From positions 64,001-128,000 of IMG/VR virus record IMGVR_UViG_3300034157_000065: a stretch of 64,000 bases of DNA; one strand, written 5' to 3'. How positions within the stretch are numbered: the stretch's first letter is position 1; every line of letters begins with the position of its first letter. This DNA comes from a virus. Its lineage: Duplodnaviria > Caudoviricetes. This document shows positions 666 through 56,122 of this stretch, piece after piece. A program made the translations under genes and the position numbers. Below the pieces are notes generated by a model. The model saw only the letters and a list, made by a program, of their open reading frames with translations, was not told the DNA's origin and ran no database searches.

Positions 666-694
666 TTGTCAAAGGCCATGAATTGTCGTATAAT
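666..694 (+). promoter_or_regulatory. sigma70-type promoter of the tRNA-like gene
   Basis: TTGTCA(666-671)-17 nt-TATAAT(689-694). Confidence 0.75.
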
Positions 695-713
695 GGCCTC
701 GTTGCAAAAAAAA

Positions 714-782
714 CTGCCGCTAAGGCTGACCTTGGCCCTCTAAAAGCTAAAGGGAACGGTTCGACTCCGTTGCGGTGGACCA
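714..782 (+). tRNA. non-canonical tRNA, CUA (amber) anticodon, short D-arm
   Basis: Acceptor CTGCCGC/GCGGTGG + ACCA; T-arm AACGG-TTCGACT-CCGTT; anticodon loop CTCTAAA; D-arm AGG-CTGA-CCT; own promoter and terminator. Confidence 0.7.
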
Positions 783-791
783 ATTTAATAT

Positions 792-830
792 AATGCCAAC
801 TCATAGCGATGTGATGTTGGCATTTTTATT
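792..830 (+). terminator. intrinsic terminator
   Basis: AATGCCAAC...GTTGGCATT followed by T-tract. Confidence 0.65.
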
Positions 831-884
831 GTCTTTAATTTAATTTCATGCTATAATCAACCAAACTTTTTGGAGTGTTATTAC

Positions 885-1496
885 ATGGCACATGAAGAAC
901 AATTGAAGACCGTTGTGGATCGTATGAAATCTGTCTATGATATTGACATTATCAGTATGTGTTTGGTTAAAAATCAACATACTATTTATACAGCCAAGAC
1001 ATCTCTTGGCCCCGCTCGTATTTATATTCACAATATGTGTGCTAACATCACTTTCACATCAAGTATCGTTTTTGATGGTCAAAATCTCAATTTAAAGAAA
1101 GATGGTTCTAACCTTCAGCCCATTGTTGATGATATTAATGAACGAGCGATGGTGCTTAATGTGGTTAAATTGAAAACGATGGGTGGTAAACATATCCATT
1201 TCTTCGAAGATACTAAGTTTACGCTTAAATTCATTGTTAGCTATGCTTTAAAAAACCCACAAATTGTTTTTAAGGCTGTTCCTTATCCCCATTATGCCAA
1301 GTTTGTGTTTCTGGATGAAGTTGATTATCCGGGGTGTCAAAAAGAATTCCAAATCTCCTATATTCGAGATACTTTTCAGTCAATGTATGGCATTGATCAA
1401 GCCTTCCATTTTGTGCATGATTACTTTAAATCTAAAAAGATGACAATGGATGATGTTGTGAGATTAACAGCCCTTAATGATATGGTGATGATATGA
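885..1496 (+). CDS. hypothetical protein, C-terminal MxxI-tag family
   Basis: GGAG RBS before ATG 885; ends LNDMVMI. Confidence 0.8.
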   Translation: MAHEEQLKTVVDRMKSVYDIDIISMCLVKNQHTIYTAKTSLGPARIYIHNMCANITFTSSIVFDGQNLNLKKDGSNLQPIVDDINERAMVLNVVKLKTMGGKHIHFFEDTKFTLKFIVSYALKNPQIVFKAVPYPHYAKFVFLDEVDYPGCQKEFQISYIRDTFQSMYGIDQAFHFVHDYFKSKKMTMDDVVRLTALNDMVMI

Positions 1497-25555: not shown

Positions 25556-26179
25556 ATGAATGTCAATGCGGCTGAAACAGATAGCTTTAAAGAACTGTTT
25601 ACTGTGTTCGCTAAGGAACACGATATAACGGTGGGACGTTATTGTGCAGTCAAACTGCTAAGTTTCTACAATTATAATTTTGATCCGGTTCTGCTCTTTC
25701 AACTGGATGCTGATTTGGTTGCTCCACTTGTCTTAAAACCTTTTAAACATTTTCATGTGAAAAAGCTAGTCACCCGCTTAACCGATTTTTTGGGTGAAGT
25801 CGTTGAAGATAGTTTAGAGGGGTTTCTTTCCGCCGACTTCTTTGATCAATTCATCCTTCACAACATTCAAAACATTGTATTGAAAGAAGGGTATACCAGT
25901 GTTCACGATGTGGCTTATTATCAATTAGAATTGATCAGCACATCTACACGCCTTATGGTGAATTTTCATACTGAACCTGCACAGCCTAGATTTTATAGAA
26001 ATACAGAAATGAAGGGATCTATTAAATACCTCAATATGGATGTTTATTATCGAGATTTTGAATCACTCAGAGAACCTATGTTGGCATATTATGCCGATGA
26101 AATTGGTAAATTCCTCAATATTCCAGTGAATGAAATTGACGATAACGTTTTGAAACTGGTTGAAATGGTTAAAATCTAG
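25556..26179 (+). CDS. hypothetical protein, C-terminal MxxI-tag family
   Basis: ends IDDNVLKLVEMVKI-TAG. Confidence 0.8.
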   Translation: MNVNAAETDSFKELFTVFAKEHDITVGRYCAVKLLSFYNYNFDPVLLFQLDADLVAPLVLKPFKHFHVKKLVTRLTDFLGEVVEDSLEGFLSADFFDQFILHNIQNIVLKEGYTSVHDVAYYQLELISTSTRLMVNFHTEPAQPRFYRNTEMKGSIKYLNMDVYYRDFESLREPMLAYYADEIGKFLNIPVNEIDDNVLKLVEMVKI

Positions 26180-55985: not shown

Positions 55986-56081
55986 CACTAGGTAGAGATG
56001 ACGATGCAATCGCCTCACAGCAAGGTTAGATCATCTTTAGGTTCAGCGGCGATTGGCGGGGTTCGAGTCCCCGATCTAGTG
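55986..56081 (+). ncRNA. tRNA-mimic ncRNA (acceptor stem + T-arm, no D-stem or anticodon loop)
   Basis: CACTAGGT/ATCTAGTG stem, CGGGG-TTCGAGT-CCCCG T-arm, CAATCGCC/GGCGATTG helix; TTGACT-17-TAATAT promoter; terminator 56084-56112. Confidence 0.65.
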
Positions 56082-56122
56082 TGAGGCTTACGATTGTGTA
56101 AGCCTTTTTTTTGGAGAAAATT

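What the first reader, a model, noticed from the sequence alone, without database searches (positions are those of the whole stretch)
666..830. Stand-alone 69-nt amber (CUA) tRNA with a miniature D-arm and a G3.U70 pair
Seen: CTGCCGC-TA-AGG/CTGA/CCT-TGGCC-CTCTAAA-AGCTA-AAGGG-AACGG/TTCGACT/CCGTT-GCGGTGG-ACCA (714-782). It sits between a TTGTCA-17-TATAAT promoter and a terminator. Anticodon CTA is at 740-742. The D-arm has only 3 bp and a 4-nt loop without the GG motif, and there is a C31-A39 mismatch. Established: G3.U70 with A73 is the AlaRS identity set, and CUA tRNAs occur in stop-recoded phages. However, TAG is a real stop here (e.g. 26179, 38661 and 50789 end exactly at the conserved tag). 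Inference: a regulated Ala-inserting readthrough tRNA, a tRNA for recoded late genes elsewhere, or a decoy for anticodon nucleases. Readthrough would also mask the free C-terminus of the three TAG-ending tag proteins.
Basis: partly seen in the sequence, partly recalled or inferred. Interest (0 to 1): 0.8.

Follow-up and report, generated by a model that had tools for sequence, protein, structure and literature searches.

The report
D-armless amber tRNA in huge phage
A clade of very large phages that use the standard genetic code carries a conserved 69-base tRNA gene that has no D-arm, a shape otherwise known only from animal mitochondria, and it bears a stop-codon (UAG) anticodon and the alanine identity mark.

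Summary
The proposed miniature D-arm is wrong.

- **Standard finders miss it.** ARAGORN and Rfam's tRNA model do not call it. Only ARAGORN's mitochondrial mode does, and that mode is noisy here.
- **Homologues exist in related phage records.** I found them in four related phage records and in one 1.86-Mb metagenome contig.
- **Covariation supports a different fold.** The most diverged copy lies in a 437-kb, 98%-complete relative. It differs at 13 of 69 positions. Ten of these form five compensatory pairs, three are unpaired, and none breaks a pair.
- **The D-stem fails and another helix holds.** The 3-bp D-stem is broken in that copy. Its 3' strand pairs instead with the "variable loop".
- **Revised fold.** Acceptor stem, a 9-nt single-stranded connector containing GG, an 8-layer anticodon helix, a 7-nt YUCUAAA loop, a canonical T-arm, then NCCA.
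- **No recoding.** Both genomes use the standard code throughout, so this tRNA does not serve recoded genes.
- **Alanine link.** It is the only G3.U70 RNA in the relative, which also encodes a 277-aa mini-AlaRS and no tRNA-Ala.

Best reading: an expressed D-armless amber-suppressor-type tRNA, probably alanine-charged. A non-decoding tRNA mimic remains possible. Another reader of this scan noted the amber tRNA on related DNA.

The parts
666..694 (+). sigma-70-type promoter (-35 TTGTCA 666-671, 17-nt spacer, -10 TATAAT 689-694)
   Evidence: The consensus scan matches 11 of 12 positions. The same promoter is conserved in L002 at 142-170.
695..713 (+). 5' leader. The predicted transcription start is about 701. 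RNase P would cut before 714 (inferred).
   Evidence: Read from the sequence. Relatives carry a ~341-nt non-coding RNA between this promoter and the tRNA; it is deleted here.
714..720 (+). Acceptor stem, 5' strand (C1 U2 G3 C4 C5 G6 C7). It pairs with 772-778.
   Evidence: All 7 pairs are kept in 4 variants. G6-C67 becomes A6-U67, a compensatory change. U2.G71 and G3.U70 are invariant.
721..729 (+). 9-nt single-stranded connector (UAAGGCUGA) replacing the D-arm. It contains a GG that could play the role of G18 G19 (inferred).
Evidence: RNAalifold leaves this stretch unpaired. The same AAGGCUGA string forms the D-loop plus 3' D-stem of ordinary phage tRNAs.
730..737 (+). Extended anticodon helix, 5' strand
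   Evidence: It pairs with 745-753. Three pairs show changes on both sides and one goes from G.U to A-U.
738..744 (+). 7-nt anticodon loop CUCUAAA, with CUA at 740-742
   Evidence: Read from the sequence. The G002 copy reads UUCUAAA, so U33, CUA and A37 are kept.
745..753 (+). Extended anticodon helix, 3' strand. A749 is bulged. A745 faces C737 as a constant C x A mismatch.
754..754 (+). Single G linking the helix to the T-arm (there is no variable loop)
755..771 (+). T-arm (5 bp, loop UUCGACU)
   Evidence: C51-G63 becomes G51-C63, a compensatory change, in the G002 copy.
772..782 (+). Acceptor stem 3' strand (772-778), discriminator A73 (779) and encoded CCA (780-782)
   Evidence: Read from the sequence. 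The discriminator is G in the L131/L137 variant.
793..827 (+). Terminator-like hairpin (8-bp stem 793-800/816-823, 15-nt loop) followed by a T-run
   Evidence: Read from the sequence. It is conserved with an A-U to G.U change in relatives. The G002 copy is followed by a different, canonical terminator.

Best explanation
Window 714-782 is a functional, independently transcribed tRNA gene of a huge phage. Its product has no D-arm. The fold is a 7-bp acceptor stem, a 9-nt single-stranded connector, an 8-layer anticodon helix closing a 7-nt loop with anticodon CUA, a canonical T-arm and an encoded ACCA.

Shown:
- the fold, by covariation;
- its conservation;
- its own promoter and terminator;
- that the phage clade uses the standard code.

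Inferred:
- Host RNA polymerase transcribes it early, and RNase P matures the 5' end.
- It is charged with alanine through G3.U70, an identity element that needs neither the anticodon nor the tRNA elbow. The enzyme would be the host AlaRS or the phage's own 277-aa mini-AlaRS.
- EF-Tu delivers it through the normal acceptor/T-arm.
- It reads UAG in competition with RF1, giving low-to-moderate readthrough of host and phage TAG stops. It does not decode recoded genes.

The long helix roughly replaces the stacked anticodon and D stems. This would keep the distance from anticodon to CCA close to that of a normal tRNA.
For: - **Structure.** V1 and V4 differ at 13 positions: 10 lie in 5 compensatory pairs, 3 are unpaired, 0 disrupt a pair. 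RNAalifold finds the same fold on its own.
- **Selection.** The element is 69/69 identical in L002 while the flanking gene is 75% identical. There is one copy per record in all five phage records.
- **Transcription unit.** A promoter matching 11 of 12 positions. Terminators follow in both lineages, with different sequences.
- **tRNA features.** A 7-nt loop with U33, CUA and A37 in all variants, a canonical T-loop and an encoded CCA.
- **Amber suppression in the clade.** G002 also has a canonical CUA tRNA with the same loop and the same C31 x A39 mismatch. It is the best non-family hit of the model, at 32.6 bits.
- **Alanine.** This is the only G3.U70 RNA among the 28 candidates in G002 that have a T-arm, acceptor stem and CCA. 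G002 has no tRNA-Ala.
- **Mini-AlaRS.** G002 encodes a 277-aa AlaRS catalytic-core protein (PF01411 above its cut-off) with conserved motifs. A 69%-identical copy lies on the same 1.86-Mb contig as the V3 tRNA.
- **Precedent.** A viral mini-AlaRS without the elbow-binding C-Ala domain charges acceptor-stem microhelices with G3:U70 specificity (PMC10036535).
- **Genomic setting.** The phages carry a large translation and tRNA-repair toolkit: TrpRS, TyrRS, two class-II aaRS, GatA/GatB, a TilS-like protein, RRF, Pnkp, Rnl1 and Rnl2.
Against: - I could obtain no expression, aminoacylation or decoding data.
- There are only four distinct sequences. With one diverged copy, conservation of CUA and of G3.U70 is not statistically informative.
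- No bacterial or phage D-armless elongator tRNA is known to work on bacterial ribosomes. My literature searches found such tRNAs only in metazoan mitochondria.
- The discriminator is G73 in one variant. U2.G71 next to G3.U70 differs from the usual G2-C71 of tRNA-Ala.
- The mini-AlaRS family is far more widespread than this RNA: 74 viral loci, and no further homologue of the RNA in 48 of those records. It is therefore not a dedicated partner.
- The mini-AlaRS was not found in the partial G000 record.
- Nothing in the phage needs UAG read. There are no recoded genes and no conserved readthrough junction.
- The thermodynamic z-scores of the single sequences are not significant.
Confidence: 0.45

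Rival explanations
1. A tRNA mimic that does not decode. It would be a stable, possibly Ala-charged, tRNA-shaped RNA that titrates or misleads a tRNA-binding factor. Candidates are a host anticodon nuclease or another tRNA-targeting defence, an aaRS, EF-Tu, or SmpB (acting as a minimal tmRNA tRNA-like domain). In relatives it might act together with the upstream RNA that is co-transcribed with it.
For: - The architecture (G3.U70, A73, no D-stem, a single-stranded D-analogue, a long helix in place of the anticodon arm, a T-arm) equals that of the tmRNA tRNA-like domain (established knowledge of tmRNA).
- The phage carries other tRNA mimics that cannot decode, such as the 96-nt RNA at window 55987-56084 that has no CCA.
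- It also carries a T4-type tRNA-repair set (Pnkp, Rnl1, Rnl2, RegB), which points to conflict over tRNAs.
- In four of five records the RNA is co-transcribed with a ~341-nt structured RNA. Other readers of this scan take that RNA for a mimic of a ribosomal factor-binding site (I did not verify this).
- The phage shows no need for UAG decoding.
Against: - A regular 7-nt loop with U33 and a purine at 37 is kept. The helix has about the right length for decoding geometry.
- The clade also has a canonical CUA tRNA with the same loop, so CUA is unlikely to be incidental.
- No host tRNA carries CUA, so it is a poor bait for an anticodon nuclease.
- Neither phage genome has SmpB, tmRNA or a release factor.
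- No Rfam tmRNA hit even at E<=10.
Confidence: 0.3
2. A true D-armless amber suppressor charged with an amino acid other than alanine. One candidate is tryptophan, by the phage's own TrpRS: the loop CUCUAAA is one change away from the tRNA-Trp loop CUCCAAA. The other is glutamine, through the phage GatA/GatB route.
For: - All five records encode a TrpRS (331 aa; TIGR00233 at 234.7 bits; closest to D. radiodurans TrpRS II, E 1e-102), 95-98% identical between records.
- No tRNA-Trp gene is seen in G000 or in the near-complete G002, whereas TyrRS is accompanied by two tRNA-Tyr genes.
- G002 encodes GatA and GatB.
- Known phage TAG reassignments are to Gln (10.1101/2021.08.26.457843).
Against: - Bacterial TrpRS depends on C35 and G73 (established knowledge). 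Here position 35 is U and position 73 is A in three of four variants.
- G3.U70 normally overrides other identities in amber suppressors (established: Hou and Schimmel 1988; McClain and Foss 1988).
- Enzymes that read the anticodon or the elbow are less likely to accept a D-armless body.
Confidence: 0.12
3. A processing signal. The tRNA-like fold exists mainly so that RNase P cuts at its 5' end and thereby makes the 3' end of the upstream ~341-nt RNA, as mascRNA does for MALAT1. The small RNA would be a by-product.
For: In G001, G003, G004 and G002 the element directly follows a conserved non-coding RNA under one promoter.
Against: - In the window the upstream RNA is cleanly deleted. The tRNA is kept unchanged, directly under the strong promoter.
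- A processing signal needs no 7-nt anticodon-like loop, no G3.U70 and no encoded CCA.
- The anticodon helix covaries as strongly as the acceptor/T domain.
Confidence: 0.08
4. A decayed pseudo-tRNA or a chance tRNA-like string.
For: - Standard tRNA finders do not call it.
- ARAGORN -mt is noisy in this AT-rich DNA.
- Folding z-scores are not significant.
Against: - Five compensatory pairs and no disrupted pair across 19% divergence.
- Perfect identity while the flanks have diverged.
- Its own promoter and terminator in each lineage.
Confidence: 0.03

Closest known systems
Phage-encoded amber (CUA) suppressor tRNAs of stop-codon-recoded and related phages (Borges et al., 10.1101/2021.08.26.457843; Ivanova et al. 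2014)
   Same: It is phage-borne, has a CUA anticodon in the loop CUCUAAA, a canonical T-loop and an encoded CCA, and lies in an AT-rich large phage. The authors themselves expected non-canonical phage suppressor tRNAs that escape detection.
   Different: - Among 116 viral CUA tRNAs with the same T-loop, the 5' part (position 1 to the anticodon loop) is 27-33 nt. Here it is 24 nt. None of the others has G3.U70 with A73.
- There is no D-arm.
- The phage is not recoded.
D-armless mitochondrial tRNAs of metazoa, e.g. tRNA-Ser(AGY) (PMC4013460, PMC4394434; listed)
   Same: The D-arm is replaced by a short single-stranded connector. The acceptor stem, T-arm and 7-nt anticodon loop are kept. ARAGORN's mitochondrial mode is the only finder that calls it.
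   Different: - It is found in a phage of bacteria, so it would have to work with bacterial EF-Tu and ribosomes rather than the co-adapted mitochondrial machinery.
- The T-loop is fully canonical and GC-rich.
- The anticodon helix is extended by pairing with the former variable region.
- The anticodon is a stop anticodon.
tRNA-like domain of tmRNA (SsrA)
   Same: G3.U70 with A73, a T-arm, no D-stem, a single-stranded D-analogue, and a long helix where the anticodon arm would be. tmRNA is charged by AlaRS.
   Different: - It is only 69 nt, with no mRNA-like domain, tag ORF or pseudoknots.
- The helix ends in a regular anticodon-like loop.
- The first pairs are C1-G72 and U2.G71, not G1-C72 and G2-C71.
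- ARAGORN's tmRNA search and Rfam give no hit.
tRNA-Pyl
   Same: CUA anticodon, loop CUCUAAA, and a shrunken D region without G18 G19 in a D-loop. ARAGORN labels it 'Pyl'.
   Different: - tRNA-Pyl keeps a D-stem, has a 6-bp anticodon stem, a 3-nt variable loop and a non-canonical T-loop.
- Here there is no D-stem and the T-loop is canonical.
- I did not search specifically for PylRS. The Pfam sweeps did not list one.
Tupanvirus mini-AlaRS with G3:U70 microhelix substrates (Antika et al. 2023, PMC10036535)
   Same: A viral AlaRS without the editing and C-Ala (elbow-binding) domains that targets only the acceptor stem. This is the kind of enzyme that could charge a tRNA lacking a normal elbow.
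   Different: - The phage protein is 277 aa against 461 aa, and its activity is untested.
- Its family is widespread in phages that lack this RNA.
- No D-armless substrate is known for TuAlaRS.

Membership tests
Canonical tRNA (Rfam RF00005 cloverleaf) | Four-arm cloverleaf including a D-stem and D-loop | tested here: not met
   There is no RF00005 hit even at E<=10 on 301 nt. ARAGORN does not call it, even at ps60. The only possible D-stem is broken in the G002 copy.
Canonical tRNA (Rfam RF00005 cloverleaf) | 7-bp acceptor stem, 5-bp T-stem with a T-psi-C-type loop, discriminator plus CCA | tested here: met
   All pairs are kept in four variants, with one compensatory change in each stem. The loop is UUCGACU/UUCGAAU, and ACCA/GCCA is encoded.
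Amber suppressor tRNA | CUA at positions 34-36 of a 7-nt loop, with U33 and a purine at 37 | tested here: met
   The loop reads CUCUAAA or UUCUAAA in all variants and is closed by a covarying helix.
Amber suppressor tRNA | Is aminoacylated and reads UAG on the ribosome | not testable with these tools
   No RNA or proteome data were available. This needs a reporter assay and mass spectrometry.
Suppressor tRNA serving a recoded (code 15-like) phage | In-frame TAG codons in phage genes, and low code-11 coding density | tested here: not met
   Code-11 ORF cover is 0.87 in G000 and 0.867 in G002, uniform along the genome. Reading TAG as sense adds about 2%. TAG-joined ORF pairs are no commoner than TGA-joined pairs.
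tRNA-Ala identity class | G3.U70 wobble pair in the acceptor stem | tested here: met
   It is present in all four variants. It is unique among the tRNA-like genes of G002.
tRNA-Ala identity class | A73 discriminator and G2-C71 | tested here: inconclusive
   A73 is present in three variants and G73 in one. Position 2:71 is U.G in all.
tRNA-Ala identity class | Charged by AlaRS | not testable with these tools
   An in vitro aminoacylation assay is needed.
D-armless tRNA (mitochondrial tRNA-Ser(AGY) type) | No D-stem; a short connector joins the acceptor stem to the anticodon helix; the T-arm is kept | tested here: met
   Covariation and RNAalifold.
tmRNA | mRNA-like domain with a tag reading frame and pseudoknots | tested here: not met
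   The RNA is 69 nt in all. ARAGORN -m and Rfam give no tmRNA hit.
tRNA-Pyl | D-stem kept, 6-bp anticodon stem, 3-nt variable loop, partner PylRS | tested here: not met
   There is no D-stem and the helix layout is different. I did not search specifically for PylRS.

The most novel reading that the evidence does not exclude
This is the first elongator-type tRNA without a D-arm that works on bacterial ribosomes. It forms a natural near-orthogonal pair with the phage's 277-aa acceptor-stem-only mini-AlaRS, which lets a huge standard-code phage insert alanine at UAG early in infection, rewiring termination of host or rival-phage genes. Such a pair would be a ready-made compact tool for genetic-code expansion.
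Probability: 0.2. Interest if true: 0.9.

Novelty: new variant of a known kind. Interest (0 to 1): 0.72.

Why it matters
D-armless tRNAs are textbook oddities of animal mitochondria, where the ribosome, EF-Tu and synthetases have co-adapted to them. A covariation-supported D-armless tRNA in a phage of bacteria would show that the bacterial translation apparatus can be served, or deceived, by such a body.

It also shows concretely that phage suppressor tRNAs escape standard finders, as the recoding literature suspected. Counts of suppressor tRNAs in phages are therefore too low.

The combination of a stop anticodon, the anticodon-independent alanine identity mark and a phage mini-AlaRS makes directly testable how standard-code huge phages tamper with termination. 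It may also offer a very small natural tRNA/synthetase pair for synthetic biology.

Tried and rejected
- **Standard finders.** ARAGORN at default, ps80 and ps60, and all 4227 Rfam families at E<=10, give no tRNA or tmRNA call.
- **ARAGORN -mt.** Rejected as evidence on its own, because it makes 54 calls in 193 kb.
- **Single-sequence MFE folds.** Rejected as a guide. The z-scores are -0.9 and -0.45, and the MFE of each copy differs from the conserved fold.
- **Phage GenBank collection.** No DNA match for the element or its 8-kb surroundings.
- **Neighbour protein in viral contigs.** No relatives found.
- **Species genomes (GTDB).** One pattern gave 0 hits and the other gave 12 hits that are all coding-sequence coincidences. 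The RNA was not found in any cellular genome.
- **Looser pattern without the anticodon.** It returned only ordinary tRNAs, in which the same octamer is the D-loop plus 3' D-stem.
- **R2 model on 48 other phage records that encode the mini-AlaRS.** It hit only canonical tRNAs.
- **Paralogues with other anticodons in G000 and G002.** None found.
- **Recoding or programmed readthrough.** Rejected.
- **Phage SmpB, release factor or tmRNA.** None found.
- **T4 gp23-type capsid family in G002.** No hit, but the control genomes gave none either, so this is uninformative.
Not verified. Rfam gave no rRNA hit on it and BLAST against E. coli genomes found nothing. Neither search is sensitive to a ~50-nt mimic.
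- **The 1.86-Mb parent contig.** I could not search it, because it is not held.

Full report
**What is in the window**

- A promoter-like site, TTGTCA-17-TATAAT, lies at 666-694 and matches 11 of 12 positions.
- An 8-bp hairpin (793-800/816-823) followed by a T-run comes after the gene. The terminator scan missed it only because its loop is 15 nt.
- The window is bases 64001-128000 of a 192,830-nt IMG/VR virus record with 34% G+C.
- ORFs cover 87% of that record under the standard code. TAG ends about 10% of genes, and reading TAG as sense gains almost nothing.

**Detection**

ARAGORN (default, and relaxed to ps60) and the Rfam tRNA and tmRNA models (E up to 10) do not call the element. That mode makes 54 calls in 193 kb of this AT-rich DNA, so its call is no evidence by itself. 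Single-sequence folding is not significant, with z = -0.9.

**Homologues**

- An exact-pattern scan found an identical 69-nt copy in a second viral contig (L002). There the adjacent gene is only 75% identical at the DNA level.
- Degenerate patterns and a covariance model found further copies:
  - in three more IMG/VR records;
  - in a 1.86-Mb metagenome contig;
  - in short contigs from other samples.
- There are four distinct sequences, and each record holds one copy.
- Nothing similar exists in 185,579 species genomes, in GenBank phages, or in 48 other phage records searched with the model.

**The structure**

The most diverged copy lies in G002, a 437,043-nt record rated 98% complete.
- It differs from the window copy at 13 of 69 positions. 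Ten of these make five compensatory pairs, one each in the acceptor stem and the T-stem and three in the anticodon helix. The other three are at unpaired positions.
- The proposed 3-bp D-stem does not survive. Its strands read AGG and CGC in G002.
Two adjacent pairs there have changed on both sides.
- RNAalifold predicts this fold independently.
- The revised fold is also the better of the two in energy for both copies: -19.4 and -19.9 kcal/mol, against -17.8 and -11.3.
- Thirteen random substitutions would leave all 19 pairs intact in about 0.06% of trials.

The RNA is therefore a D-armless tRNA. It has:
- a 7-bp acceptor stem;
- a 9-nt connector (YAAGGCUGA);
- an 8-layer helix with a bulged A and a constant C x A mismatch next to the loop;
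- a 7-nt loop, YUCUAAA;
- one linker G;
- a canonical T-arm, then A or G at position 73, then CCA.

The connector octamer is the same string that forms the D-loop plus 3' D-stem in many ordinary phage tRNAs. This suggests descent from a normal tRNA that lost the 5' D-stem strand. Among 116 viral CUA tRNAs with the same T-loop, none is as short on the 5' side (24 nt against 27-33), and none has G3.U70 with A73.

**Context**

The host genome is a huge phage.
- Pfam and PHROG sweeps of G000 and G002 show T4-type accessory genes: RegB, Rnl1, Rnl2, polynucleotide kinase, dCMP deaminase, NAD-dependent ligase and a DNA polymerase.
- They also show a heavy translation set: RRF, TrpRS, TyrRS, two class-II synthetases, GatA, GatB and a TilS-like protein.
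- G002 uses the standard code along its whole length and encodes 26 ordinary tRNAs. One is a canonical CUA tRNA with the same loop and the same C31 x A39 mismatch. It is the best non-family match of the model, at 32.6 bits.
- Amber suppression therefore seems to be a trait of the clade, but not for decoding recoded genes. In-frame TAG junctions are not enriched. The one long TAG-joined ORF pair in the window is not conserved in G002.
- Neither phage genome encodes a release factor, SmpB or tmRNA.

**Amino-acid identity**

- G3.U70 is kept in all variants. In G002 it is unique among 28 candidates that have a T-arm, acceptor stem and CCA. G002 has no tRNA-Ala.
- G002 encodes a 277-aa protein that matches the AlaRS catalytic core (PF01411 at 51.7 bits, above its cut-off; AlaRS structures at E 7e-11). 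The alanine/ATP-site motifs are conserved across a family of more than 800 proteins of 250-310 aa.
- A 69%-identical member lies on the same 1.86-Mb contig as the V3 copy of the RNA, 452 kb away.
- A giant-virus mini-AlaRS without the elbow-binding C-Ala domain is known to charge bare acceptor-stem helices with G3:U70 specificity (PMC10036535). An enzyme of that kind, or any AlaRS, would be indifferent to the missing D-arm and to the stop anticodon.
- Caveats:
  - The mini-AlaRS family is much more widespread than the RNA.
  - The mini-AlaRS is not in the partial G000 record.
  - One variant has G73.
  - Position 2:71 is U.G.
- A rival candidate is the phage TrpRS, which has no phage tRNA-Trp partner. 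However, the body lacks C35, and three of four variants lack G73.

**Transcription unit in relatives**

In the four other phage records the tRNA follows a conserved non-coding RNA of about 341 nt under the same promoter. In the window this RNA has been cleanly deleted, so the promoter sits 19 nt from the tRNA. The tRNA is unchanged. Other readers of this scan interpret that upstream RNA as a mimic of a 23S rRNA factor-binding site and noted that it is co-transcribed with an amber tRNA. I confirmed the co-location but not the mimicry.

**Verdict**

The element is a real, selected RNA gene; I put this at about 0.9. Its fold is a D-armless tRNA, which is new for phages and bacteria as far as the searched literature shows.

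Whether it decodes UAG, and with which amino acid, is inferred and not shown.
- An alanine-charged amber suppressor is the most likely reading, at about 0.45.
- A non-decoding tRNA mimic is next, at about 0.3.
- A suppressor carrying another amino acid is at about 0.12.
- A processing signal is at about 0.08.
- A pseudo-tRNA is at about 0.03.

Noticed in passing
L002:171-536 (also L143, L144, L145 upstream of their tRNA copies); absent from window between 708 and 709: A conserved ~341-nt non-coding RNA lies between the promoter and the D-armless tRNA in four of five phage records, with long invariant blocks. It is deleted in the window. Other readers of this scan read it as a mimic of the 23S rRNA uL11/GTPase-associated site. 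Rfam and BLAST gave me nothing on it.
   Followed up: partly
G000 163079-164071 = L008:17079-18071 (+): A phage-encoded TrpRS of 331 aa, closest to Deinococcus radiodurans TrpRS II (E 1e-102). It is present at 95-98% identity in all five related records. No tRNA-Trp gene is seen in G000 or in the near-complete G002.
   Followed up: partly
G002 108830-109660 = L263:1483-2313 (+); P0013 on Ga0308158_10000001: A 277-aa AlaRS catalytic-core protein ('mini-AlaRS'). It belongs to a family of more than 800 metagenomic proteins of 250-310 aa and occurs in 74 viral contigs, some of them 480-608 kb.
   Followed up: partly
G002 375947-376020 = L178:15947-16020 (+): A canonical 74-nt CUA (amber suppressor) tRNA in a phage that uses the standard code throughout. 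It has C3-G70, A73 and the same C31 x A39 mismatch as the D-armless RNA. It was not found in the partial G000, G001, G003 or G004 records.
   Followed up: partly
G002 389162-389237 (L179:9162-9237) and G000 128160-128233 (L007:2160-2233): tRNAs with irregular anticodon loops. The G002 gene has an 8-nt loop, which ARAGORN reads as the four-base anticodon 'agaa'. The G000 gene is a weak tRNA (Rfam 34 bits) whose loop is 6 or 8 nt. Either could be a frameshift-type or decoy tRNA.
   Followed up: no
G002 260180-260268 (L173:180-268): An 89-nt tRNA-like gene inside the Ser/Tyr tRNA cluster that ARAGORN does not call. It has an acceptor stem, a T-arm, ACCA and a CUGUAAA (Tyr) loop. Its anticodon arm is enclosed by a further 6-bp helix in place of a normal D-arm, so it may be a second D-armless design.
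   Followed up: no
window 55987-56084: A 96-98-nt tRNA mimic with a 7-bp closing stem stacked on a perfect T-arm. It has no CCA (the tail is GTGA) and a long internal helix.
   Followed up: no
G000 127800-129700 (L007:1800-3700): An island of individually promoted structured RNAs. One of them ends in a T-arm followed by CAUCUGC-ACCA. The only acceptor partner my scan found would give G3.U70, but it lies upstream of the likely transcription start.
   Followed up: no
Ga0308158_10000001 (1,859,102 nt), an ENA contig of 1,858,324 nt, and Ga0247725_1000001 (1,539,155 nt): Close relatives of this 'provirus' lie on contigs of 1.5-1.9 Mb. On the 1.86-Mb contig the tRNA occurs once, so the contig is not a concatemer. 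The same ORFan-rich, phage-like gene content is seen 452 kb away. Whether these contigs are giant prophages in small bacterial genomes or something larger than any known phage is unresolved.
   Followed up: partly
G000 and G002, scattered; L265:18397-19230: A dense tRNA-conflict toolkit: RegB-like endoribonuclease, Rnl1, two Rnl2-type ligases, polynucleotide kinases, a PBECR5 nuclease, a Thg1-like protein, a TilS-like protein, and GatA/GatB.
   Followed up: no
window 870-1496, 1493-2140, 2145-2870, 25556-26179 and many others: Many unrelated ~200-aa proteins end in the same C-terminal motif (hydrophobic-D/E-M-x-x-I/V, then stop). The two genes downstream of the tRNA are among them.
   Followed up: no
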